Assembly (NCBI GenBank): GCA_019338205.1 | Contig: GCA_019338205.1_4761.1 | Strand: one strand, 5' to 3' | Source of the DNA: a phage | Length of the DNA stretch: 64,000 bases | Notes under the pieces: model-generated | The model's input: only the letters and a program-made list of their open reading frames with translations | Told to the model about the DNA's origin: nothing | Databases searched by the model: none | Program-made: the position numbers and the translations under genes | Shown here: positions 8,485 to 59,448 of the stretch, piece after piece | Position numbering within the stretch: the first letter of the stretch is position 1 | Layout of the letters: every line of letters starts with the position of its first letter

Positions 8485-10347
8485 ATGGAAAAACTAATCA
8501 AAGACATTACAGAGATCGCAACGGGTAAAGAAAACGAAGTAAGCAAAGAGAACGCGAACAAAGACGCGCGAACATTCCCGACACGTCGAGATCTGATTGC
8601 TGGTGCTGTGTCTAAACAGATTGCTAAAACCGTGTTACCTGAGCACATCTATAAAGCGCATGTAGACGGTGATATTCATTATCATGATATGGATTATGCA
8701 CCCGCTATGCCGTTTACTAACTGCTGTCTTGTTAATCTAAAAGACATGTTAGAGAATGGTTTTAAATTGGGTAGCGCACAAATCGAAAGTCCGAAATCAA
8801 TCGGCGTTGCTTGTGCTGTAACCGCTCAAATTATCGCACAGGTGGCAAGTCATCAATATGGCGGGACCACAATTGCAAATATCGATCAGGTGTTAGCGCC
8901 GTATGTTGAGAAAACATATCATAAACACCTTGCTGATGCCGAAACCTACGGAATCAAAGCTAATACTCTCTATGCACAAGAGAAGACAGAAAAAGAAACG
9001 CTAGACGGATATCAGGCGTTGGAATATGAGATCAACACTTTGTTCTCTACCAACGGTCAAACACCTTTTGTGACTTTAACCTTTGGTATGGGTACTAGCT
9101 GGGAAGAAAAACTGATTCAGAAAGCGATCTTGAAAGTTAGAATTAAAGGTTTAGGTAAAGATGGTATAACTCCGGTGTTTCCTAAGCTGGTGATGTTCTT
9201 AGAAGAAGGATTAAACCTTAAACCGGAAGATCCGAACTACGACATTAAGCAACTTGCATTGGAATGTTCTAGTAAGCGTCTTTACCCTGATTATATCTCT
9301 GCGAAGAATAACCGTAGTATCACCGGATCTAGTGTTCCGGTTAGCCCGATGGGTTGTCGTAGCTTCCTGGGTGTGTGGCATAATGAGAAAGACGAGGAAG
9401 TATTAGACGGACGTAATAACTTAGGTGTTGTGACTCTGAATCTTCCGCGTATTGCCCTTATTGCCTCGCGTCGTGCTGGTAAAGCGTCTGTAATGCGCAG
9501 AATTGAGCTATTCGAACAAGAGCTAGCTAATCGTATGCCTATTTGCTTTGATGCGCTCATGAGTCGCGTAGACGCTTTAAAAGGGGCTAAAGCCAATGTT
9601 GCTCCGGTGCTGTATACAGAAGGTGCATTTTTCCGTATTCATCAAAACGATGAAATTTTGGAAGTGCTGAAAGATGGTCGCGCTAGTATCTCTCTTGGAT
9701 ATATTGGTTTACATGAGGTATTGAGCGTCCTGTTTGGTGTTCATCCGTTTGATTCGGAAGATGCGCAGCGATACGGTAAACATATTCTTAAGATCTTGCG
9801 TCATTATACTGAAAAATGGAAGGATGAAACCGGACTTGGGTTTAGTCTTTACGGTACGCCAGCCGAGAGCCTTTGCTATCGATTTAATCGACTGGATCGA
9901 GAGCAATTTGGTATTGTTAAGGGTGCTACCGATAAAGACTGGTACACTAACTCATTCCACCTTGACGTAGACCGGAAAGTCACACCATTTGAGAAAATCG
10001 ACTTTGAGAAAGATTATCACTGGCTGGCGTCCGGTGGCATGATCTCTTATGTTGAGTTCCCAGACATGAAAAACAACCTGAAAGGTCTTGAAACTGTAGT
10101 AGACTATGCAATGGATAAATTGCACTACTTCGGTGTTAATACTCCTTCTGATGTATGTCATGTATGCGGATCTAATAAGGAAATGAGAGCGACCGAGTCT
10201 GGTTTTGTTTGCCCTGATTGCGGCAATGACAATCTGGAAAAGATGAATGTTATCCGTCGCGTTAGTGGATATCTTGGATCTGTTGATCTGCGTCCATTTA
10301 ACCACGGGAAACATTCCGAGATGGTAAACCGCGTTAAGCACATGTAA
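8485..10347 (+). CDS. nrdD: anaerobic ribonucleoside-triphosphate reductase (NrdD)
   Basis: 620 aa; C-terminal Cys cluster CHVCG..CPDCG and glycyl-radical motif RVSGYLG; uninterrupted (no intron evident). Confidence 0.85.
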   Translation: MEKLIKDITEIATGKENEVSKENANKDARTFPTRRDLIAGAVSKQIAKTVLPEHIYKAHVDGDIHYHDMDYAPAMPFTNCCLVNLKDMLENGFKLGSAQIESPKSIGVACAVTAQIIAQVASHQYGGTTIANIDQVLAPYVEKTYHKHLADAETYGIKANTLYAQEKTEKETLDGYQALEYEINTLFSTNGQTPFVTLTFGMGTSWEEKLIQKAILKVRIKGLGKDGITPVFPKLVMFLEEGLNLKPEDPNYDIKQLALECSSKRLYPDYISAKNNRSITGSSVPVSPMGCRSFLGVWHNEKDEEVLDGRNNLGVVTLNLPRIALIASRRAGKASVMRRIELFEQELANRMPICFDALMSRVDALKGAKANVAPVLYTEGAFFRIHQNDEILEVLKDGRASISLGYIGLHEVLSVLFGVHPFDSEDAQRYGKHILKILRHYTEKWKDETGLGFSLYGTPAESLCYRFNRLDREQFGIVKGATDKDWYTNSFHLDVDRKVTPFEKIDFEKDYHWLASGGMISYVEFPDMKNNLKGLETVVDYAMDKLHYFGVNTPSDVCHVCGSNKEMRATESGFVCPDCGNDNLEKMNVIRRVSGYLGSVDLRPFNHGKHSEMVNRVKHM

Positions 10348-12255: not shown

Positions 12256-12265
12256 GGTGATTATT

Positions 12266-12793
12266 ATGAAATGGGAAGTTGGTAAAACTTACAAGATTGA
12301 ATGCGAAGCGTCGAAAGCCGAACTAACTAAATTTTCGTCGTCTATTAACAGATGTATTGTTGACTTGTTGGCTGGTCGCCCGTTTAGGGTAGAAGACCTT
12401 GACGATGATGGTGATGTTAGAGAAATTACTGTTATTGGTAGTAATTTCGACTCTATGACGTTAAAAGAATCCCCTATTGGCTGTTCCGGCGTGTGGTTTT
12501 GGTCGGGTGAGCGTCGTTTCTTTACCGAAGTTACTATTGAACCTAAGATTCCAGATTCGGAAGAAAAAGAAGAAGACCTAACTTTAGAACGCCTGGGTCT
12601 GCTTATGGAAGCCTACGACATTCAGTTGATCGATAAGATGGGGTTACATAATAGCATTGCCAAAATTACTACCCTAGAAGGTATTAAGAGCGTACTGGAT
12701 GGTATGCCTAGCCGGATCGGTGCTATCCGAGAATACAAACAAACGCGCGACCGTATGATCCAATTAGAATCACGTATCAAAAATGAGAGATGA
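12266..12793 (+). CDS. hypothetical protein, MKWEVGKTY family paralog 1
   Basis: N-terminal MKWEVGKTYKIE; C-terminal helical tail. Confidence 0.55.
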   Translation: MKWEVGKTYKIECEASKAELTKFSSSINRCIVDLLAGRPFRVEDLDDDGDVREITVIGSNFDSMTLKESPIGCSGVWFWSGERRFFTEVTIEPKIPDSEEKEEDLTLERLGLLMEAYDIQLIDKMGLHNSIAKITTLEGIKSVLDGMPSRIGAIREYKQTRDRMIQLESRIKNER

Positions 12794-12797
12794 TATT

Positions 12798-13262
12798 ATG
12801 AAATGGGAAGTTGGTAAAACCTATGCGTGGAAAGATGTAAAAGATGCAAACCAATTTTTTAAATGGTATGATGTTGATTATTTGAAATATCTGAGATTAC
12901 CGTTTAAAGTTGCGTCGGTTGATGCGAAAAAAGGATACGTGCGGTCTGTATATCTTCATGATGGAACTTATATGAGTTCAACCGATGTAGGTCTATCTTG
13001 TTGGTTTCTGGATCATGACCGTAGCAGATTTGAAGAAATTATTATTCCAGAAGAATCTAAATTAATTGATCTTCTCAAGTTGGCGATGGATAATTATAAA
13101 ATCCGCTTTGAATGCAAATCACATGCGGCTATCGGTGCTAACGCATTGCGTCATATCTCCAGTTTTGAAGAGTTGAAAGATTTTCTTGACAAAATGCCGG
13201 AAAGAGTGCAAGCTATACAGGAAGCAGAGAAAGCATTAAACGAACTTGATAAAATCGGTTAA
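12798..13262 (+). CDS. hypothetical protein, MKWEVGKTY family paralog 2
   Basis: N-terminal MKWEVGKTYAWKD. Confidence 0.55.
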   Translation: MKWEVGKTYAWKDVKDANQFFKWYDVDYLKYLRLPFKVASVDAKKGYVRSVYLHDGTYMSSTDVGLSCWFLDHDRSRFEEIIIPEESKLIDLLKLAMDNYKIRFECKSHAAIGANALRHISSFEELKDFLDKMPERVQAIQEAEKALNELDKIG

Positions 13263-13274
13263 GGGGAATATATT

Positions 13275-14099
13275 ATGAAATGGGAAATTGGTAAAACTTA
13301 CACCTGGAAAGACGAAAACGCTAAAACTGAGTTTATTACTAACGGAGAAGGTGTTCTTTCTCCACTTAACAGCGATATTAGTGCAGCTATTGGTGACAAG
13401 CCATTTACCATCATCGAGATCGAGGGTAACGGTTGGATTGATGCAATAGAGCTAGACGGTGTTTATCATACGGCGAAAACTGCTACAGGAAAAGACATTT
13501 GGACTGCAACATATTTCTTTAGTCCATTCGATAGAAAATTCTTTCGTGAAGTTGAAGAAGTTCCCCAGAAATGGGAAGTTGGTAAAACTTATACTTGGAA
13601 AGATGTGAATGCTATGACAGACTTCTGCCATTATGCTGAAAACGCATCTAACCTTAATTATGTTATTGCACGAGCAATAAATTATAGACCTTTTACTGTT
13701 AAAAATGTTCGTCCATGTGGGCAAATTGATGTAATTGAAATTGATGGTAAAGACCATACTCTAATGAGCGCAACCGAAGATAGAGACCATAAAGGAACTA
13801 GCTGGTTTATTGATTCTGATAGAAAATTCTTTCGTGAAGTAGAAGAATTGGAAGTTATAACCACTGATTCTAAGATCGTTGGACAGTTGAAACGTCTGTT
13901 TAGTAGTCGTTACGGCCTGACAATGGTTAAATTTGGCGAAGCAAATGAAGGTAAAACCTTTGAACGTTTCGATGATTTCATTGCGGCACTTGACAAGATG
14001 GATGAAATCATGCAAGATCGCCAGAAGATTAAAGACCTTCAAGAAGACATTAAACGTCGTGAAGTTGAATTTTTGATTGGTAAAGAGCGAGGTTGGTAA
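13275..14099 (+). CDS. hypothetical protein, tandem double MKWE(I/V)GKTY domain
   Basis: MKWEIGKTYTWKD at N-terminus and QKWEVGKTYTWKD internally; repeated DRKFFREVEE. Confidence 0.55.
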   Translation: MKWEIGKTYTWKDENAKTEFITNGEGVLSPLNSDISAAIGDKPFTIIEIEGNGWIDAIELDGVYHTAKTATGKDIWTATYFFSPFDRKFFREVEEVPQKWEVGKTYTWKDVNAMTDFCHYAENASNLNYVIARAINYRPFTVKNVRPCGQIDVIEIDGKDHTLMSATEDRDHKGTSWFIDSDRKFFREVEELEVITTDSKIVGQLKRLFSSRYGLTMVKFGEANEGKTFERFDDFIAALDKMDEIMQDRQKIKDLQEDIKRREVEFLIGKERGW

Positions 14100-14100
14100 T

Positions 14101-14583
14101 ATGTTTGTTGCTGGCGTGACCTATCAGTGGAAAGATAAGAAAACGAGAGAAGATTTTGCAAACTTTAGCGTTGCAAATGATGCAATAGCAGAGTTTATAG
14201 GCGACCGTCCATTTAAAGTTATCGCATTTGATCACCATGCATCGGATGTTGATTATGTTTCTGCGATTGAAATTGATGGCACGGTATACACCTGCTGCAA
14301 TGTTGATGATGTACGGGAATACGCGCACAACTGGTTTTTGCAATCAGAAGAACGTCATTTTAAAGTGGTATCGGCAGAACTGACCACTGATGCAATGTTG
14401 GAACAATTTTTCAACAACTACGAAGTTTCTGTACGTCGATACGGTGAAGAGGAAGTATTTAAAATTGATGACTATAATCAGTTTAAACGAGTATTCGCCA
14501 CTAAGATCCAACGTGATATTGAACGCGAGAAGCGCATTAAGGAACTGGAAGAAGAACTAGAAAGATTAAAGGCTGAGAAATGA
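14101..14583 (+). CDS. hypothetical protein, diverged member of same family
   Basis: VTYQWKDKKTREDF..GDRPFKV..AIEIDGTVYT; coiled-coil C-terminus. Confidence 0.5.
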   Translation: MFVAGVTYQWKDKKTREDFANFSVANDAIAEFIGDRPFKVIAFDHHASDVDYVSAIEIDGTVYTCCNVDDVREYAHNWFLQSEERHFKVVSAELTTDAMLEQFFNNYEVSVRRYGEEEVFKIDDYNQFKRVFATKIQRDIEREKRIKELEEELERLKAEK

Positions 14584-14849
14584 TCGAGATATACGGTATA
14601 CCGAAAGAGGCTTATCATTGTTATGGTTGTATTAGTGCAATGAAGCTACTGGATGATCTGGGTATTCCGTATACACTTAAACCAGTATTCAAGCCGGTCG
14701 GGGTTGACATTATTCCCGACCGTGATATGATTGAAGAACTGGCGGGGAGGCTAAACTCAAAGAGCCTCCGGTTTGTATACCCCCAGATATTCATTGACAA
14801 CGAGCACATTGGAGGCTATAAAGAACTGAGGGCGATTTATGATTATTGA
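14580..14849 (+). CDS. glutaredoxin-like protein (NrdH-like)
   Basis: CYGC active-site motif near N-terminus; ~89 aa. Confidence 0.6.
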   Translation: MIEIYGIPKEAYHCYGCISAMKLLDDLGIPYTLKPVFKPVGVDIIPDRDMIEELAGRLNSKSLRFVYPQIFIDNEHIGGYKELRAIYDY

Positions 14850-14997
14850 GAATTTAGTTTCGGTGTTCATTATTGCTTTATTTGCTATAATGACTTTACC
14901 GTTGAAGAAGTGTAAGCACTGTAACGGAACAGGATTGCGTGGTGATGGGTGTTGCGCTCATTGTCATGGATCTGGTAAAGTAAGTATCATTAAGTAA
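14839..14997 (+). CDS. small membrane-anchored protein with two CxxCxGxG zinc-finger motifs
   Basis: 52 aa; hydrophobic N-terminus then CKHCNGTG and CAHCHGSG. Confidence 0.4.
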   Translation: MIIENLVSVFIIALFAIMTLPLKKCKHCNGTGLRGDGCCAHCHGSGKVSIIK

Positions 14998-15018
14998 TTC
15001 TTGAGTGAGGAATATATT

Positions 15019-15306
15019 ATGTTAGTACACAATGCAATCGCACACATGGTTTATTCTCGATTTGGGCGCATGGAAGAAATCAATATTACCGACGCAGATT
15101 TAGATCTGATGCAAGTCGAAGGCCAGACATATCTGAAAAATAACGGCGTGAATATCGGTAAAGCGCGTGTGCGTGAATTGTTAGTTGAATATATTCTCTC
15201 TGAATTTGGCATTAGTGCTTTCGGTGTGAAAGAGATTGCACCTAAGCGCGAAATTTCTGATAAAATGATCAAGAAATGCCAGAAAGCACGACGTAAGGGT
15301 TTCTAA
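15019..15306 (+). CDS. hypothetical protein, translationally coupled to downstream NTPase
   Basis: GAGGAATATATTATG; stop/start TAATG overlap with next gene. Confidence 0.5.
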   Translation: MLVHNAIAHMVYSRFGRMEEINITDADLDLMQVEGQTYLKNNGVNIGKARVRELLVEYILSEFGISAFGVKEIAPKREISDKMIKKCQKARRKGF

Positions 15307-16775
15307 TGAAGATTGAAACATTAATTGCATTGCCAGCGGCGGGGAAAACTGATGCTATACTTTCCCACGTCCTAGAGACAAAAGAAAAAGCGGTTATTGC
15401 TTCGCCATCTCGTGTTTTAAGTGAACAATCTTACAATAAGTTTAAAAGAATGGGCGGTCGTGCTGTCTTGATTGATAGCACAAGACTAAGAAGCCTTAAG
15501 ACAGTGCAAGCGTCGATAATGCAATCAGTTAAAGACGGTGCTGATGTGATATTCATTACACATACAGCGTTATCTAATATGGAACGTTCAAAAATGTTTG
15601 GTGAATATGCTCTTTACATTGATGAAGTTCCTCAACTGGTTGAATTTAATGAGTATCCGTTTAAGTCTAATCTTGAACTTATCACGAAGCATTGCGAACC
15701 AATCGCCGACGAATCGGAATGCCTACAGAACTTAGTTCTAAAAGACTCTGAGAAGGCCGTTATCAAAGAAAAGATAGAAAGTGCAAAGGATGGTACTGAT
15801 ATGATCGATTCTTCTCTTAGAGGGCTTTATGAGGCGTTATTAGAGAAGAAAATCAACGTTATGGTAAAACATAACGAAGGACACCGGAAGAATGGGTCGA
15901 AAATTGTTTTCTTGAACGATAACAAACACGGTACGTGGGGAGACTTTAAAAAGGTTACGATAGCATGTGCAAATCTCTTTGATACATATAGCGGGAAGTA
16001 TCTACGATACTATGCAAATTGCGATTTTGTTCCGAGTGCGCTAGAATCCAGACTATATTTCAAAGAGTATAAAAATACAGATAGAGTTAATATCATCCTT
16101 ATGACGGACTCTGAACGATGGTCGCGTCACCAGTCAGAAACAAACAATACCTTTGAACGTCTTGTTGATATGGTTAAAAATGAATGTGGCGATGACTTCA
16201 TTTATACCGTGAATCGGGACCGAGAAGCGTGTACAAATGGTATTGGTGAGCGGATACCTTACGGATCTTATGGTCTTAACTCTTACATTCATCATAAAAA
16301 TGTTGCTGTGATGTTCAGCTTTAACCCGCAACGATGGGAGATTGATATTTTAAAAGGTCTTGCTAATAGTTGTGATCTCCCGACAAACGAGTTTTTGAAA
16401 GCGCGTCATGTGTCTGATTATCTGGAACCAGCATTTCAATTATGTTTGCGTTGTAACCTGAGAGACAACGAGAGCAAGGAGAATGTTAATCTATATGTTC
16501 CTGATTTGGCGTTGGTAGATTATCTAAAAACGTTTCTACCTGATGCCAATGTAATAACAGACCGAATGATTCCGCTAGAATGTGGTGAGCGTAAAGGGCG
16601 AAAATCATTTAAAAAGATGTTCGATTTTAACGAGCAAGAGAATGCAAGATTTAACGGATTTAAGTACCGCATGAAGAAAAAGGGAAAAACTCTTGATCCG
16701 TCTGACGGTGAATCTGTAGAGATGGTTAGAGTGTGGATAACTAAGCAAAGAAAGTATAATGGTAATGGGGAATAG
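15306..16775 (+). CDS. P-loop NTPase of unknown function (Walker A/B, helicase-like N-terminal domain)
   Basis: LPAAGKT Walker A, YIDEVPQ Walker B-like; 489 aa, no match to a T4 core gene that I recognise. Confidence 0.55.
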   Translation: MKIETLIALPAAGKTDAILSHVLETKEKAVIASPSRVLSEQSYNKFKRMGGRAVLIDSTRLRSLKTVQASIMQSVKDGADVIFITHTALSNMERSKMFGEYALYIDEVPQLVEFNEYPFKSNLELITKHCEPIADESECLQNLVLKDSEKAVIKEKIESAKDGTDMIDSSLRGLYEALLEKKINVMVKHNEGHRKNGSKIVFLNDNKHGTWGDFKKVTIACANLFDTYSGKYLRYYANCDFVPSALESRLYFKEYKNTDRVNIILMTDSERWSRHQSETNNTFERLVDMVKNECGDDFIYTVNRDREACTNGIGERIPYGSYGLNSYIHHKNVAVMFSFNPQRWEIDILKGLANSCDLPTNEFLKARHVSDYLEPAFQLCLRCNLRDNESKENVNLYVPDLALVDYLKTFLPDANVITDRMIPLECGERKGRKSFKKMFDFNEQENARFNGFKYRMKKKGKTLDPSDGESVEMVRVWITKQRKYNGNGE

Positions 16776-16815
16776 CCCGAAAGGGTTATTTCCTAAATAA
16801 TAGCGAGGGTGCGAA

Positions 16816-17349
16816 GTGTCTGATTATGTAAACAATAAAGAGCTTTACGAAGAAATTTGCCGTTGGAAACAACAAATTGCAGCAGAAGGTCGGCAAGTTC
16901 CAATGAGCGATCAAATCGGCCTAGCAATTATGCAAATCTCTAAAAATCTATCACGTCGTTTTAACTTTTCTGGTTATAGTCAAACATGGCGCGAAGAAAT
17001 GATCGACGACGGAATCGAAGCGGCGGTCAAGGGTTTGATTAATTTTGACGAGACAAAGTATAAAAATCCTCATGCTTACATCACGCAAGCGTGCTTTAAT
17101 GCTTTTGTACAGCGCATTAAAAAAGAGAGAACAGCGACAGCCGCAAAATACAAATATTTTGTGCATCATGTATATGACGAACGCGACGCTGATATGTGCC
17201 AGATTGCTGATGAGGCATTCATACAGGACATTTACGATAAAATCAACAACTACGAGGAATCGGTCAATAAACCGAAAGCGCCAAAGGTTGAAGATGTATT
17301 GACCGAGGAATTGCCTAGCCTGGACCAATTTTATGAGATTGAAAATTAA
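16816..17349 (+). CDS. 55: late-transcription sigma factor gp55
   Basis: [48 protein letters not shown] match T4 gp55 as recalled; GTG start. Confidence 0.85.
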
Positions 17350-17566
17350 CATTTCCCGTTTGCTGGAAGAAGCAGAGTTTGAAACTGACCTTGTGCCGTA
17401 TTTCGCCAAATTATTTTTGAGAGATTGCGGCGTTCCGGTGATTATCGATCCGTGCAATATCAAATCACCGGATCTTGAGGTCTTTACGGGTACAATCTCA
17501 CATAGCTATAATGTATCAGAAGATGAATTTTCTTTAATAATTGATTATATCCCAGAAGGAAAATAA
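17333..17566 (+). CDS. hypothetical protein
   Basis: 77 aa ORF overlapping gp55 stop. Confidence 0.35.
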
Positions 17567-17567
17567 C

Positions 17568-17855
17568 ATGACTTACGATGAACAGCATGACCAGATTGCA
17601 GTGAATGAAGTAGACAAAGTACAAGCAGAACTAGAGGCTAAAGCCGCTAAGAAAGCGGAAAAGATCTTGCGTAAGAACTCGCGAGAGATTGCACGCCTTA
17701 AGCGGTGGGCTGAACAAGCTATCATCGATGATAACCGTGATGCGTATATCTACGCTATCGGAAAGTTACGTGATATCTATAAACAGCCACACACGCCAGA
17801 ACTGCTTTCTGCTATGTGGATTAGTACACGGCAAACGGTATTAAGTATGCTGTAA
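17568..17855 (+). CDS. hypothetical protein
   Basis: 95 aa ORF with AGGAAAATAACATG RBS. Confidence 0.5.
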   Translation: MTYDEQHDQIAVNEVDKVQAELEAKAAKKAEKILRKNSREIARLKRWAEQAIIDDNRDAYIYAIGKLRDIYKQPHTPELLSAMWISTRQTVLSML

Positions 17856-17865
17856 TGGCTTTATA

Positions 17866-17900
17866 AGGGAGACTCCGAAAGGGGTTTCCCTTTTTATTTT
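17866..17900 (+). terminator. probable intrinsic terminator
   Basis: GC-rich imperfect hairpin GGGAGACTCCGAAAGGGGTTTCCC + TTTTTATTTTT. Confidence 0.5.
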
Positions 17901-17945
17901 TCTATGATATAGTGAGAGCATCGAAAACGAAGAGAGGAAGAGACT

Positions 17946-18971
17946 ATGAAAATTTTGCTTTTAGGTGATCTGCATACTGGCATCGGTGGCGATGATCCGT
18001 GGGTGCATGAATATATTTTAGACACGATCAAGAAAGCGGTTGATTATTCTAAAGAAAACGGTATTAAGATATGGATTCAAACAGGGGATTGGTTTGATTG
18101 TCGCAAGGCTATCACACATGAAACCATGAAATTTAACCGTACTAAGGTCATCCCATTACTGGAAGAGGCAGGAATCACCTGTTATATCACGGTCGGGAAT
18201 CATGATATGTTTAAGCGCAATAAGATCCAGCCTAACTCGCCGCGTGAAGTGTTAAGCCAGTATGATTGCATTAAGGTTATTGATAAGCCGGAAACAGTTA
18301 CCTTTGATGGGGTATCATTCGACCTGTTCCCGTGGTTTTGTGATGACAATAAATCCGAGGTTTTAGAGTTTATTCAAAATTCATTCAGCGAATATTGTGT
18401 AGGCCATTGGGAGTTGTCCGGCTACTATTTCTATAAAGGGTTAAAATCCGAAGGTTATAGCGCGGACTTCCTCAAGAAATACCGTGAAGTGTTTTCCGGT
18501 CACTTTCATACTATCAGTGATGGCGGTAACGTAACGTATATAGGTACACCATACACACTAACGGCGGGTGACGAAAACGATCCGCGTGGTTTTTGGGTAT
18601 TCGATACAGATACACACAAAAAGGAGTTTATCCAGAATGACAAAACTTATCATGTGCGTATCACTTACCCGTCAGATGATAAAATCGATGTAGAACGCTT
18701 TAAAGGGCTTAGTGTGCGCCTAATTGCAACGGTCGCTGATAATGGGTTAACTAAGTTAGAAAGCGCGTTAGAGGCCGTTGTACACAAGCTAAAAGTGGTC
18801 CATAAGCTGGAGAGTAGCGCATCACAGGAAACAGGTGTTATTGAAGTTAAAAGCACTATTCAGATGGTCTATGAATATCTGGAAGAACAAAACCTAGAAC
18901 CGGAAGAACTTGCGGCAGTTAAGCGTATCTCTGATGAACTTTTAGCCGAAGTAAATAGCGCAAAAAGTTAG
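17946..18971 (+). CDS. 47: recombination nuclease subunit gp47 (Mre11/SbcD-like)
   Basis: LGDLH, GDWFD, GNHD phosphoesterase motifs; 341 aa. Confidence 0.8.
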   Translation: MKILLLGDLHTGIGGDDPWVHEYILDTIKKAVDYSKENGIKIWIQTGDWFDCRKAITHETMKFNRTKVIPLLEEAGITCYITVGNHDMFKRNKIQPNSPREVLSQYDCIKVIDKPETVTFDGVSFDLFPWFCDDNKSEVLEFIQNSFSEYCVGHWELSGYYFYKGLKSEGYSADFLKKYREVFSGHFHTISDGGNVTYIGTPYTLTAGDENDPRGFWVFDTDTHKKEFIQNDKTYHVRITYPSDDKIDVERFKGLSVRLIATVADNGLTKLESALEAVVHKLKVVHKLESSASQETGVIEVKSTIQMVYEYLEEQNLEPEELAAVKRISDELLAEVNSAKS

Positions 18972-36221: not shown

Positions 36222-36535
36222 TGCATGTATTTGCTGTATGTTATCGTGATAAAGACGGATTCTTTCAATACTCAGTGGACGCGAAGGGTCGCGTCCTAAC
36301 TTGCGAAACACATGATGCTGCGTTAGCGTCAATGTGTGATCAGATAGATTATTGTGAGAGTCTATTGGCAGGTGAACCGAAATACAAGGTTGTACCTAAA
36401 CGAAAATTTGGCATAATCCGGTCTTCTGAAATTGTTCGGGATGGTATCGAATATAAAATTCCTGAATATGAAAAAGAACGGGTACGGCGAGAACTCAATA
36501 CTATCTGTGTTCGCAAGGTGAGGATTTTAGGATAA
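36221..36535 (+). CDS. hypothetical protein
   Basis: 104 aa, ATGA coupling. Confidence 0.5.
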   Translation: MHVFAVCYRDKDGFFQYSVDAKGRVLTCETHDAALASMCDQIDYCESLLAGEPKYKVVPKRKFGIIRSSEIVRDGIEYKIPEYEKERVRRELNTICVRKVRILG

Positions 36536-37926
36536 TGAGCAGAGTATTAACTTTCGATATGTTAACAGACGGACAAAAACATGCTTTTGATGTTCTAATG
36601 AAACGCATTGAACAAAAGAAGCATACAACTGTCCGTGGTGCGGCGGGTACTGGTAAAACCGCAATGATGAAATTCATTGTTCAGGAAATGGTCCGTCGTG
36701 GTGTAACTGGTGTGGTTTTGGCAACGCCTACCCACCAGGCTAAAAAAGTTTTGAGTAAAGCGGTAGGTCGTCAAGCATTTACTTTACATGCACTACTGCG
36801 ACTAAACCCGACCAACTATGAAGATACTCAAGTATTTGAGCAAAAAGATACTCCTAAGCTAGATGATGTTCAGATCATCATTGTTGATGAAGCGAGTATG
36901 GTCGATAAGAAACTATTTGATATTCTCATGAAGAGTATCAACGGTCGAATTGTTATTATTGCCGTGGGTGATCTGTACCAGTTACGACCAGTTGATCCGA
37001 GCGGTGCAACGTCGATCTCTCCTTTCTTCACCGATGAAAGGTTTCAGAATGTAGAACTTACAGAGATTAAACGATCTAATGCGCCAATAATTGATGTGGC
37101 GACCGCTGTCCGTAATGGTAAATGGGTATTCGAAAAGCAGTGCGGTAACGAGGGTGTATTCCATAGCTCAACTCTGCCGGAGTTTATGAAGCATTATTTC
37201 GAAACCGTTAAAACGCCGGAAGACCTTCTAGAAAACCGTATTCTGGCCTACACTAACAAGAGCGTCGAAAAACTCAATGAAATTGTACGTAAGCGCGTTT
37301 ATAACACCGATGAACCAGTGATTGTAGATGAAATTCTGGTTACTCAGGAACCATTGATCGAATATCTGCGAGATGAACGCGGGAAGAAGATTCCCAATGT
37401 TATTTTTAACAATGGTGAGATGATCCGAGTTAAAGAGGTCATCCCGCGTGAATTTACATTACGTTGCACGGGGGTAGATCCGCAACCAGTTTTAGGCTAT
37501 ACTCTGAAAGTGGAAAGCGTCGATGATGACGAAGACAAAGAAATCCTAAATCAGAAAGTTGGTTTAGATGCAGTCGGAATCACTACAGATAAACCGGATT
37601 TAGTAGAAATCAACATTCTGACAGAACAACGCCAGAAGAACATTTTCTCTATCTATCTGAATACGGTCGCCGGACAATATCGCGAAATGAAGAAAGAGAA
37701 TCCAAAATTTAAACCAGATTGGGATTCCTTCTGGACGATGAAACGTATGTTCTTGAATGTAAAAGCATTACCAGCTTGCACCATTCATAAGTCACAAGGG
37801 ATCAGCGTAGACCGCGTGTTCCTGTATACTCCTTGCATGTGTACAGACAATGTTGACTTTGAATTGGCAATGCAGTTATTATATGTGGGTGTTACCCGTG
37901 CGCGGTATCGAGTAGACTATATTTGA
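36535..37926 (+). CDS. dda: SF1 DNA helicase Dda
   Basis: Walker A GAAGTGKT, IIVDEASM Walker B, C-terminal VGVTRAR; 463 aa. Confidence 0.85.
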   Translation: MSRVLTFDMLTDGQKHAFDVLMKRIEQKKHTTVRGAAGTGKTAMMKFIVQEMVRRGVTGVVLATPTHQAKKVLSKAVGRQAFTLHALLRLNPTNYEDTQVFEQKDTPKLDDVQIIIVDEASMVDKKLFDILMKSINGRIVIIAVGDLYQLRPVDPSGATSISPFFTDERFQNVELTEIKRSNAPIIDVATAVRNGKWVFEKQCGNEGVFHSSTLPEFMKHYFETVKTPEDLLENRILAYTNKSVEKLNEIVRKRVYNTDEPVIVDEILVTQEPLIEYLRDERGKKIPNVIFNNGEMIRVKEVIPREFTLRCTGVDPQPVLGYTLKVESVDDDEDKEILNQKVGLDAVGITTDKPDLVEINILTEQRQKNIFSIYLNTVAGQYREMKKENPKFKPDWDSFWTMKRMFLNVKALPACTIHKSQGISVDRVFLYTPCMCTDNVDFELAMQLLYVGVTRARYRVDYI

Positions 37927-59440: not shown

Positions 59441-59448
59441 TATTTATA
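59441..59448 (-). promoter_or_regulatory. T4-type late promoter TATAAATA upstream of gene 36
   Basis: reverse complement of plus TATTTATA; 33 nt upstream of gp36 ATG; gp55 is present in window. Confidence 0.55.

What the first reader, a model, noticed from the sequence alone, without database searches (positions are those of the whole stretch)
14839..16775. Three-gene module ending in a 489 aa P-loop NTPase of unknown function, upstream of gp55
Downstream of the NrdH-like glutaredoxin lies a 52 aa membrane-anchored double CxxCxGxG zinc-finger peptide, a 96 aa protein and a 489 aa protein; the last two are coupled by TAATG. The large protein has an N-terminal Walker A (LPAAGKT) and a DExx-like Walker B (YIDEVPQ) in helicase-like spacing, with a ~370 aa C-terminal region I cannot place. 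No T4 core gene of this size or type sits between nrdG and gene 55, so this is an accessory insertion in a hyperplastic region. Candidate roles include an anti-defence ATPase, a DNA-modification-associated kinase or helicase, or an exclusion system.
Basis: partly seen in the sequence, partly recalled or inferred. Interest (0 to 1): 0.6.

Follow-up and report, generated by a model that had tools for sequence, protein, structure and literature searches.

The report
Uncharacterised XPD/DinG-like helicase in RB49-type phage
The 489-residue protein is a complete but very divergent helicase-type ATPase, conserved next to the topoisomerase-I inhibitor gene 55.2 in many T4-related phages but missing from T4 itself; it is an ordinary kind of enzyme whose role has never been tested.

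Summary
The window is an RB49-like phage (Krischvirus, 98.8-99.3% nucleotide identity).

They are not a three-gene module:
- The 52-aa membrane and zinc-ribbon peptide occurs only in Krischvirus, with weak hits in FelixO1-like phages.
- The middle protein (95 aa) is the homologue of T4 gp55.2, a published inhibitor of E. coli topoisomerase I.
- The 489-aa protein is RB49ORF044c (phrog_2467, "unknown function").

The gene keeps its position (nrdH - 55.2 - helicase - 55) across Krischvirus, RB43-, 44RR-, Aeh1-, Proteus-, Serratia- and Erwinia-type phages. It is absent from T-even phages, so it is an old lineage gene rather than a recent insertion.

Most likely it is an early-expressed, ATP-driven DNA translocase or helicase that assists phage DNA replication, recombination or repair. 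A functional link to gp55.2 is possible but unproven. This is a new member of a known kind, of moderate-to-low interest.

The parts
15306..16775 (+). Gene for the 489-aa SF2 helicase-like ATPase (= RB49ORF044c; phrog_2467)
   Evidence: ORF. phrog_2467 E 1e-173 over the full length. Pfam DEAD 27.4 bits against a cut-off of 26, residues 11-130. 98-99% identical in Krischvirus and 35-42% in other Straboviridae. AF2 model pLDDT 89.2, pTM 0.78.
15327..15350 (+). Motif I / Walker A, ALPAAGKT (residues 8-15)
   Evidence: G13, K14 and T15 are invariant in 34 T4-type homologues. K14 is present in all ungapped sequences among 140 distant representatives, and invariant in A2.
15399..15572 (+). Motif Ia-like (ASPSRVLSEQS, residues 32-42) and Ib-like (VIFITHTAL, residues 81-89) parts of RecA domain 1. 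Only about 40 residues separate them, so there is no room for an Fe-S domain.
   Evidence: S33, L38, S42, F83, T85 and L89 are invariant in A1. L38 is 89% and T85 is 85% conserved in distant relatives. No conserved cysteines.
15612..15632 (+). Motif II / Walker B, LYIDEVP (D106 E107)
   Evidence: D106 and E107 are present in 140 of 140 distant representatives and invariant in A1 and A2.
15636..15941 (+). Inserted accessory domain of about 100 aa (residues 111-212) between motif II and the motif III-like strand (KVTIACAN, 216-223). This is the position of the Arch domain in XPD/DinG.
16071..16565 (+). RecA-like domain 2 (about residues 256-420) with motif IV-like FIYTVNRDR, motif V-like YGSYGLNSY (G323, N325), FSFNPQRW, motif VI-like EPAFQLCLRCNLR (Q378, R382, R386) and LYVPD
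   Evidence: G323, N325, Q378, R382 and R386 are present in 140 of 140 distant representatives. N303 is 94%, V398 92% and D400 91% conserved.
16566..16772 (+). Basic, mostly helical C-terminal tail (residues 421-489; 17 K/R in 69 aa); possible nucleic-acid-binding extension
   Evidence: Helices 443-458 and 468-484 in the model, with a low-confidence linker at 426-431. Composition. Two distant family members give weak, sub-threshold HTH hits at the equivalent place. The tails of T4-type members give none.
15019..15306 (+). Gene for the 95-aa homologue of T4 gp55.2 (DNA-binding inhibitor of host topoisomerase I in T4); upstream neighbour whose stop overlaps the helicase start
   Evidence: Pfam DUF7570 E 1.1e-28, 99.5 bits. 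phrog_1475. Annotated 55.2 in RB49, RB43 and Aeh1. 41.7% identity to T4 55.2 at the same map position. T4 function from PMC4396842.
14839..14997 (+). 52-aa membrane-anchored peptide with two CxxCxGxG motifs (= RB49ORF046c). It is a neighbour, not part of the conserved unit.
   Evidence: Sequence. phrog_3931 E 4e-10. DnaJ_CXXCXGXG scores only 14.6 bits against a cut-off of 32.7. tblastn finds it only in Krischvirus, about 50 FelixO1-like phages and one Aeromonas phage. Among 29 helicase loci it is found only in the two Krischvirus loci.

Best explanation
The 489-aa protein is an enzymatically active superfamily-2 nucleic-acid-dependent ATPase. It has two RecA-like domains, a domain of about 100 aa inserted between motifs II and III, and a basic C-terminal tail. 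Its predicted architecture is closest to the XPD/Rad3/DinG/CasDinG helicases, but it lacks the Fe-S cluster domain.

It lies on the early/middle-gene strand, inside the DNA-metabolism cluster nrdD-nrdG-nrdH-55.2-[helicase]-55-47-46-45-44-62-43.

I infer that ATP binding and hydrolysis at the cleft between the two RecA domains drives translocation along single-stranded DNA, probably 5'->3' as in XPD/DinG. This would unwind or remodel branched intermediates (forks, D-loops, R-loops) or strip proteins during phage DNA replication, recombination or repair. It would act as a fourth, accessory helicase beside gp41, Dda and UvsW.

It belongs to an old gene block (nrdH - 55.2 - helicase) of the Straboviridae that the T-even lineage lost. 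The upstream gp55.2 homologue is a separate, already characterised type of protein. A functional partnership between the two is possible but not shown.

Shown here: gene reality, motif conservation, fold, synteny and distribution.
Inferred: the DNA substrate, the polarity and the biological role.
For: Identity of the phage and genes.

Full SF2 motif set under strong purifying selection:
- 34 T4-type homologues.
- 140 distant representatives with D106, E107, G323, N325, Q378, R382 and R386 at 100% and Walker A GK[TS] in every ungapped sequence.
- Eight invariant columns in an 82-sequence alignment with 17% mean identity.

Fold:
- Confident model: pLDDT 89.2, pTM 0.78.
- Foldseek, run independently: the top 11 hits are all CasDinG, XPD or DinG, E 4e-10 to 2e-7.
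- The insertion lies between motif II and the motif III-like strand.

DNA-metabolism context and strand. There is no late promoter motif nearby.

Conserved position in RB49, RB43 and Aeh1 and in 29 IMG/VR loci. Normal GC and GC3.

Some relatives carry weak C-terminal HTH-like segments, which points to DNA as the substrate.

Earlier weak annotations agree: 'DEAD/DEAH box helicase, E 0.069' for RB49ORF044c in PMC1524935, and 'putative helicase' in phage W115.
Against: - No biochemical or genetic data exist for any member. Both PHROG families are 'unknown function' and no paper was found.
- Sequence methods see only a generic RecA1 domain. Pfam DEAD is barely above threshold. None of 82 members hits Helicase_C, DEAD_2 or Helicase_C_2.
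- A profile search of PDB sequences finds only N-terminal matches to PriA, Mfd, DDX, UvrB and reverse gyrase.
- hhalign of the family profile gives 10.7% probability against E. coli DinG but 72% against the DEAD-box protein RhlE, over RecA1 only.
- The XPD/DinG likeness therefore rests on a predicted structure. TM-scores are modest, 0.42-0.52.
- Motif VI has unusual spacing: Q-x3-R-x3-R.
- The phage already encodes Dda- and gp41-type helicases, and T-even phages do without this gene, so it is probably not essential.
- An RNA substrate is not excluded.
Confidence: 0.6

Rival explanations
1. Two-gene functional pair. The gp55.2 homologue (host topoisomerase I inhibitor, DNA binder) and the helicase act together on DNA supercoiling or R-loops. 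For example, they might stabilise and then resolve R-loops used to prime replication, or form a helicase plus topoisomerase-modulator device reminiscent of RecQ-Topo III or reverse gyrase.
For: - A 55.2 homologue lies upstream on the same strand in 28 of 29 helicase loci and directly abuts the helicase in about 20.
- The pair stays together in the RB43 group, where the downstream neighbour is gp34 rather than gp55.
- The stop and start overlap in RB49, RB43 and Aeh1.
- T4 gp55.2 binds DNA and blocks relaxation by topoisomerase I (PMC4396842).
- Reverse-gyrase helicase domains appear among the weak sequence and fold matches.
Against: - nrdH is equally syntenic, so the pattern fits a plain conserved gene block.
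- Other small ORFs occupy 0.8-2.2 kb between the two genes in 7 of 29 loci.
- More than 800 phages keep 55.2 without the helicase: 1093 records against 244.
- Distant family members have no 55.2 nearby.
- Stop/start overlap occurs with any upstream ORF.
- No interaction was tested.
Confidence: 0.15
2. Counter-defence or exclusion ATPase. The helicase would strip or mislead a host immune complex such as CRISPR R-loops or restriction translocases, or exclude competing phages.
For: - It sits in a region of T4-type genomes rich in accessory ORFs and is dispensable for the T-even lineage.
- Relatives occur in mobile elements or islands beside recombinases, type I R-M genes, methyltransferases and DUF4062.
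- Structural neighbours include CasDinG, Hna and DdmD.
Against: - There is no PADLOC match apart from one chance-level hit at E 0.009.
- Presence does not track DNA modification. The helicase co-occurs with dCMP hydroxymethylase in Erwinia phage Cronus, IME13 and Aeromonas phages.
- It is vertically conserved at one locus over deep divergence (35% identity), unlike fast-turnover anti-defence genes.
- The catalytic motifs are those of a housekeeping-type motor.
Confidence: 0.12
3. Replication-initiator or origin-binding helicase (UL9-like logic). The wider family would serve mobile elements and phages as a sequence-specific initiator, and the T4-type member would retain an origin-related role.
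For: - Distant members lie next to gene-free stretches of 1-2 kb. Two of these carry repeated small palindromes, GTTRC-N3-GYAAC.
- Weak HTH hits occur in the C-terminal tails of some members, and there is one weak Herpes_ori_bp hit.
- Neighbours include resolvases and integrases.
Against: - In the window there is no non-coding stretch: only 40 nt separate the helicase from gene 55. The palindrome occurs 0 times in 64 kb.
- Tails of T4-type members give no HTH match.
- From my own knowledge, T4-type replication is known to start from R-loops and recombination intermediates without a dedicated initiator.
- The palindromes could equally be promoters or terminators of those phages.
Confidence: 0.08
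4. RNA helicase or RNA chaperone (DEAD-box-like) acting on phage or host transcripts.
For: The only Pfam family above threshold is DEAD. hhalign favours RhlE over DinG for RecA1.
Against: - DEAD-box signature motifs (Q motif, DEAD, SAT, HRIGR) are absent. Motif II is IDEV and motif VI is QxxxRxxxR.
- No Helicase_C hit.
- The whole-protein structural neighbours are DNA helicases.
- The genomic context is DNA metabolism.
Confidence: 0.05

Closest known systems
XPD/Rad3/DinG family of SF2 5'->3' DNA helicases, especially the Fe-S-less or vestigial-Fe-S members (CasDinG of type IV CRISPR; S. tokodaii Xpd4; Finegoldia magna DinG)
   Same: - Two RecA-like motor domains with motifs I, Ia, Ib, II, V and VI.
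- An accessory domain inserted into RecA1 after motif II, at the Arch position.
- Size similar to a minimal XPD once the Fe-S domain is removed.
   Different: - No four-cysteine Fe-S domain. The only two cysteines invariant in T4-type members (C130, C380) are not conserved in the wider family.
- No Pfam DEAD_2 or Helicase_C_2 signal in 82 members.
- hhalign probability against E. coli DinG is only 10.7%.
- About 10% sequence identity.
- Motif II is DEV rather than DEAH.
- Motif VI spacing is Q-x3-R-x3-R.
- There is an additional basic C-terminal tail.
- Polarity and substrates are untested.
T4 accessory helicases Dda (SF1B) and UvsW (SF2, RecG-like)
   Same: Non-replicative phage helicases of T4-type phages, encoded among early and middle DNA-metabolism genes. 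They remodel forks, R-loops and D-loops, which is the role inferred here.
   Different: - The phage has its own Dda-like gene elsewhere in the window (36535-37926).
- T4 UvsW is a poor structural match (Foldseek rank 28, TM 0.22).
- There is no sequence similarity.
- This gene is absent from T4.
T4 gp55.2 (for the 95-aa upstream protein)
   Same: Pfam DUF7570 at E 1e-28, 41.7% identity, similar length, and the same map position downstream of nrdH. T4 gp55.2 inhibits E. coli topoisomerase I and increases phage fitness (PMC4396842).
   Different: In T4 it is followed by 55.1 and then 55; here it is followed by the helicase. Topoisomerase I inhibition has not been tested for the RB49-type protein.
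phrog_2467 / phrog_31024 (uncharacterised phage protein families)
   Same: The protein is a full-length member of phrog_2467 (E 1e-173). The longer relatives of about 800 aa match both families.
   Different: These families carry no functional annotation. The helicase assignment, motif set and fold are what this analysis adds.

Membership tests
Superfamily 2 helicases/translocases | Walker A (motif I) GxGKT/S | tested here: met
   AAGKT at residues 11-15. G13, K14 and T15 are invariant in A1. K is present in all ungapped sequences among 140 distant representatives.
Superfamily 2 helicases/translocases | Motif II DExx | tested here: met
   D106 and E107 are present in 140 of 140 distant representatives.
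Superfamily 2 helicases/translocases | Motif VI with glutamine and arginine finger(s) in a second RecA-like domain | tested here: met
Superfamily 2 helicases/translocases | Pfam helicase domain models above their curated cut-off | tested here: inconclusive
   DEAD (PF00270) scores 27.4 bits against a cut-off of 26 and is matched at E<=0.01 by 52 of 82 members. ResIII is matched by 30 of 82. No Helicase_C hit in any member.
XPD/Rad3/DinG family | Arch domain inserted in RecA1 between motifs II and III | tested here: inconclusive
XPD/Rad3/DinG family | 4Fe-4S cluster domain with four conserved cysteines between motifs Ia and II | tested here: not met
   Only about 40 residues lie between motifs Ia and Ib. 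No cysteine is conserved there. C130 and C380 are not conserved in the wider family. Some accepted members (CasDinG) also lack a functional cluster (PMC10450177 abstract).
XPD/Rad3/DinG family | Sequence-profile membership (Pfam DEAD_2 / Helicase_C_2, or profile match to DinG) | tested here: not met
   Neither family appears among the 25 most-matched families (of 37) listed for the 82 members at E<=0.01. hhalign of A2 against E. coli DinG gives probability 10.7%, over the Walker A region only.
XPD/Rad3/DinG family | Closest overall fold | tested here: met
XPD/Rad3/DinG family | 5'->3' translocation on ssDNA | not testable with these tools
   Requires helicase polarity assays.
T4 gp55.2 family (Pfam DUF7570), for the 95-aa protein | Profile match above cut-off, similarity to T4 55.2, and conserved position downstream of nrdH | tested here: met
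   99.5 bits against a cut-off of 27. 41.7% identity, E 1e-11 to T4. Position in T4, RB49, RB43 and Aeh1.
T4 gp55.2 family (Pfam DUF7570), for the 95-aa protein | Inhibition of host topoisomerase I | not testable with these tools
   Shown only for T4 gp55.2 (PMC4396842).
DnaJ-type CxxCxGxG zinc finger, for the 52-aa peptide | Two CxxCxGxG repeats forming one zinc centre | tested here: inconclusive
   Both motifs are present in the sequence. Pfam DnaJ_CXXCXGXG scores only 14.6 bits against a cut-off of 32.7.
Known anti-phage defence and candidate defence proteins (PADLOC-DB) | Profile match | tested here: not met
   The only hit is a chance-level match to RTasSLATT (E 0.009, 13.6 bits). The two small proteins give nothing.

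The most novel reading that the evidence does not exclude
The gp55.2 homologue and the XPD/DinG-like helicase are an ancestral two-component device of T4-type phages that manipulates DNA topology. gp55.2 blocks host topoisomerase I so that negative supercoils and R-loops accumulate. The helicase then processes those R-loops or D-loops, for example to control R-loop-primed origin firing. The T-even lineage later replaced the helicase's role. The protein would also be the first characterised member of a family of more than 1300 clusters of phage and mobile-element helicases.
Probability: 0.1. Interest if true: 0.65.

Novelty: new member of a known kind. Interest (0 to 1): 0.33.

Why it matters
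- It assigns a fold and a catalytic motif set to a widespread but unannotated phage protein family: phrog_2467 and phrog_31024, 244 phage genomes, and 1366 cluster representatives at 50% identity.
- It shows that many T4-related phages carry a fourth helicase that the model phage T4 lacks. T4-based pictures of replication and recombination may therefore be incomplete for RB49-, RB43-, 44RR- and Aeh1-type phages, several of which are used in phage therapy collections.
- The conserved neighbourhood with the topoisomerase I inhibitor gene 55.2 gives one concrete, testable lead.
- The enzyme class itself is ordinary.

Tried and rejected
1. Three-gene module. Rejected: the 52-aa peptide is restricted to Krischvirus and FelixO1-like phages and is absent from all other helicase loci.

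2. Helicase present only in phages with unmodified cytosine. Rejected: gp42 (dCMP hydroxymethylase) homologues occur in Erwinia phage Cronus (the same genome as L009), Stenotrophomonas phage IME13 and 48 Aeromonas phage records, groups that also carry the helicase.

3. T4 55.1 as a remnant of, or replacement for, the helicase. Rejected: there is no similarity (E 0.44). A 55.1-like ORF coexists with the helicase in L009.

4. TAATG as specific translational coupling with 55.2. It is generic: the start overlaps the stop of whatever ORF lies upstream in about 24 of 29 loci.

5. C-terminal tail as an HTH domain. No Pfam hit for seven T4-type and related tails. Only weak sub-threshold hits in two distant members.

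6. Sequence-level link to solved structures. phmmer and the A1 profile found nothing. The A2 profile found only generic RecA1 matches.

7. NCBIfam and PADLOC: no meaningful hits.

8. Recent horizontal acquisition. GC and GC3 are ordinary.

9. AFDB50 fold search: the library was unavailable.

10. The palindrome GTTRC-N3-GYAAC, seen beside distant family members, is absent from the window.

11. The 187-191-aa ORF coupled to the helicase in Aeromonas phages looked to me, from memory, like a DprA/SLOG-type motif. Pfam and PDB sequence searches gave nothing.

12. Literature: no paper on phrog_2467 or on the locus tags, apart from a Pfam table entry in PMC1524935.
Full report
**What the window is.** Megablast of 14500-17400 finds 59 phage genomes at 95-99.3% identity over the full length. 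All are RB49-like (Krischvirus; RB49 98.8%, ECD7 99.2%, FL15 99.3%). In RB49 the same stretch is annotated nrdH - RB49ORF046c - 55.2 - RB49ORF044c - 55 - a-gt.5 - a-gt.4 - (HNH) - 47. The + strand of the window from about 4 kb to 50 kb is the T4-type early/middle DNA-metabolism cluster. It holds nrdD, gp46/47, a gp41-like helicase, a Dda-like helicase, topoisomerase II subunits and rIIA.

**Checking the observation.** The ORFs are as described.
- The 52-aa ORF (14839-14997) has a hydrophobic N-terminus followed by CKHCNGTG and CAHCHGSG.
- The second ORF is 95 aa from ATG 15019, with a GAGGAA Shine-Dalgarno sequence, and ends at 15306.
- The 489-aa ORF runs from 15306 to 16775, and its ATG shares the A of the preceding TAA.
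- Walker A is ALPAAGKT (residues 8-15) and motif II is LYIDEVP (103-109).
- The flanking genes are an NrdH-type glutaredoxin and gp55.
- In T4, 55.2 is followed by the 71-aa 55.1 and then 55, so T4 has no counterpart of the large gene.

The middle protein is 95 aa, not 96. The TAATG junction is generic: the helicase start overlaps the stop of whatever ORF lies upstream in about 24 of 29 related loci.

**The two small genes.**
- The 95-aa protein hits Pfam DUF7570 at E 1e-28. It is 41.7% identical to T4 gp55.2 at the same map position and is annotated 55.2 in RB49, RB43 and Aeh1.
- T4 gp55.2 is a non-essential, fitness-increasing protein that inhibits E. coli topoisomerase I (PMC4396842). This gene is therefore a known T4-family gene in its normal place.
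- The 52-aa peptide (phrog_3931) is found only in Krischvirus, weakly in about 50 FelixO1-like phages, and in one Aeromonas phage.
- Among 29 loci that carry the helicase, the peptide occurs only in the two Krischvirus ones.
- The "three-gene module" therefore does not hold.

**The 489-aa protein: sequence.**
- It is a full-length member of phrog_2467 (E 1e-173, "unknown function").
- Pfam gives only DEAD/DEAH at 27.4 bits against a cut-off of 26, for residues 11-130.
- NCBIfam, PADLOC and PDB sequence searches give nothing useful.
- An alignment of 34 homologues (32-73% identity) shows invariant P10, G13, K14, T15 (motif I); S33, L38, S42 (Ia); F83, T85, L89 (Ib); D106, E107 (II). In the C-terminal half the invariant residues are Y300, N303, R306, G323, N325, N340, W344 and P375, F377, Q378, L379, C380, R382, R386.
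- A profile search of 1.84 billion cluster representatives finds 1366 relatives at E<=1e-3 and 803 at E<=1e-10. They fall into two length classes, about 470-600 aa and about 750-890 aa.
- In 140 of these distant representatives, D106, E107, G323, N325, Q378, R382 and R386 are each present in 140 of 140. Walker A GK[TS] is present in every ungapped sequence. The cysteines are not conserved.
The protein has a complete SF2 motif set, including an arginine-bearing motif VI (Q-x3-R-x3-R). It has no Fe-S cluster ligands.

**The 489-aa protein: structure.**
- AlphaFold2 with the 34-sequence alignment gives pLDDT 89.2 and pTM 0.78.
- The order of elements is: RecA1 strands and helices carrying motifs I, Ia, Ib and II; an insertion at about residues 111-212; the motif III-like strand KVTIACAN; the end of RecA1; RecA2 (about 256-420) with motifs IV-VI; and a basic helical tail (421-489, 17 K/R in 69 residues).
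- Foldseek agrees independently. Its top 11 are all CasDinG, XPD or DinG (E 4e-10 to 2e-7, TM 0.37-0.52).
- In BFVD the nearest models are uncharacterised proteins of Agrobacterium phage Atu_ph07, Ralstonia phage phiRSL1, Fusobacterium phage Fnu1 and others.
- The insertion sits exactly where XPD/DinG carry the Arch domain. There is no room, and there are no cysteines, for the Fe-S domain.

**Limits of the XPD/DinG assignment.**
- None of 82 family members hits Pfam DEAD_2, Helicase_C_2 or Helicase_C.
- The family profile matches PDB sequences only through RecA1 (PriA, Mfd, DDX, UvrB, reverse gyrase).
- hhalign of the profile gives 10.7% probability against E. coli DinG, but 72% against the DEAD-box protein RhlE, over RecA1 only.
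- I therefore describe it as XPD/DinG-like in predicted architecture. I do not file it as a member of that family.

**Distribution and synteny.**
- tblastn finds the protein in 244 phage records. These are Krischvirus (>=95% identity) and, at 34-42%, phages of Aeromonas (44RR, 31, 25, Aeh1 types), the RB43/RB16/Cronobacter/Enterobacter/Citrobacter group, Proteus, Morganella, Serratia, Erwinia, Pantoea and others. There are more distant hits in Atu_ph07 and Pseudoalteromonas phage PH357.
- The gp55.2 query finds 1093 records, including T4 and other T-even-type (Tequatrovirus) phages among the listed rows. More than 800 phages therefore keep 55.2 without the helicase.
- In 29 IMG/VR loci, a 55.2 homologue lies upstream on the same strand in 28, directly abutting the helicase in about 20, and 0.8-2.2 kb away with other small ORFs in between in 7.
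- nrdH is upstream in 28 of 29 loci. gp55 is downstream except in the RB43 group, where gp34 follows.
- Identities of the helicase, nrdH and gp55 fall together across lineages, and GC and GC3 are ordinary.
- The simplest reading is an old gene of the Straboviridae block nrdH-55.2-helicase that the T-even lineage lost, not a recent insertion.
- A 55.1-like ORF coexists with the helicase in L009, which is Erwinia phage Cronus. T4 55.1 is not a remnant of the helicase.
- The helicase also coexists with dCMP hydroxymethylase in several lineages. Its presence is therefore not tied to unmodified DNA.

**Wider family.**
- Long relatives carry a C-terminal extension of about 350 aa with no Pfam match. 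All relatives tested fall in phrog_2467 or phrog_31024.
- Contexts are phage contigs and chromosomal or mobile elements with resolvases, integrases, methyltransferases and type I R-M genes.
- None has a 55.2 homologue nearby.
- Several sit beside gene-free stretches of 1-2 kb. In PH357 and in L037/L038 these carry repeated GTTRC-N3-GYAAC palindromes. The window has none.

**How it most likely works.**
- Shown: this is a real, conserved gene. It has intact and strongly constrained ATP-binding and hydrolysis motifs and an arginine finger motif. It has two RecA-like domains with an inserted domain. It lies on the early strand within a DNA-metabolism context.
- Inferred: it is an ATP-driven translocase or helicase on DNA, probably 5'->3' on single strands as in XPD/DinG. 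It would remodel forks, D-loops or R-loops, or clear proteins, during phage replication, recombination or repair.
- It would be an accessory helicase beside gp41, Dda (both in the window) and UvsW. I put this at about 0.6.
- The rivals are a functional pair with gp55.2 acting on supercoiling and R-loops (0.15), a counter-defence or exclusion ATPase (0.12), an origin-binding initiator (0.08) and an RNA helicase (0.05).

**Novelty and prior knowledge.**
- A Pfam table in Nolan et al. 2006 already lists RB49ORF044c with a weak DEAD/DEAH hit (E 0.069) (PMC1524935).
- One GenBank record calls the protein "putative helicase".
- No functional study exists.
- The analysis adds the complete motif set, the fold, the family size and the synteny.
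- It is a new, divergent member of a known kind (SF2 helicases with XPD/DinG-like architecture). Interest is moderate to low. The one lead worth testing is the conserved neighbourhood with the topoisomerase I inhibitor gene.

Noticed in passing
window 12257-14583 (+): Four consecutive ORFs (178, 159, 274 and 168 aa; = RB49ORF051c-048c) all begin with an 'MKWEVGKTY.WKD...' type domain. The 274-aa one contains the domain twice. This is a tandem array of paralogues between nrdG and nrdH, of unknown function.
   Followed up: no
window 17855-17946, compared with L001 (RB49) 9356-10017: RB49 carries an HNH/AP2 homing-endonuclease ORF (RB49ORF040c, 555 bp) between a-gt.4 and gene 47. In the window the gap is only about 90 nt and holds a terminator-like hairpin (17865-17892). 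The endonuclease is therefore absent: a presence/absence polymorphism.
   Followed up: partly
window 14839-14997: The 52-aa membrane and double-CxxCxGxG peptide has weak homologues (42-44% identity, E 1e-3 to 8e-3) in about 50 FelixO1-like phages (Felixounavirus) and one Aeromonas phage. These are unrelated to T4-type phages, which suggests a small mobile accessory gene.
   Followed up: partly
L006 731-2899; L037 8497-9672 (= L038); L039 6395-7373; L005 6256-7246: Distant members of the helicase family lie next to stretches of 1-2 kb without called genes. In PH357 (L006) and in L037/L038 the loci carry several perfect small palindromes GTTRC-N3-GYAAC (4 and 3 copies per locus against about 0 expected, most of them inside the gene-free stretches). 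These may be promoters, terminators or origin repeats. There are none in the window.
   Followed up: partly
L034 3441-4004 and L016 3429-4004 (Aeromonas phage 44RR and 25 types): In these phages a 187-191-aa ORF overlaps the helicase start by 4 nt, instead of 55.2. It carries 'GxGSRETP...GRSGGAxGADxAFE'. I recall this as DprA/SLOG-like, but it gave no Pfam or PDB sequence hit.
   Followed up: partly
phage records (e.g. MH059636.2 Erwinia phage Cronus = L009; NC_029000.1 IME13): Homologues of T4 gp42 dCMP hydroxymethylase (56-58% identity) occur outside the T-even genera: in Erwinia phage Cronus, Stenotrophomonas phage IME13 and 48 Aeromonas phage records. These phages may also use a modified cytosine.
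   Followed up: no
window 16776-16815: The 40-nt spacer between the helicase stop and the GTG start of gene 55 contains a small hairpin (CCC-GAAA-GGG) followed by TTATTT. No TATAAATA late promoter occurs anywhere nearby; there is only one copy in the whole window, at 59441 on the minus strand.
   Followed up: no
proteins P0072-P0194, e.g. P0074 in L036 6001-8508: About 40% of the listed distant relatives are 750-890 aa, with a C-terminal extension of about 350 aa that has no Pfam match. A few (P0119, P0160) have N-terminal extensions of 365-415 aa instead.
   Followed up: partly
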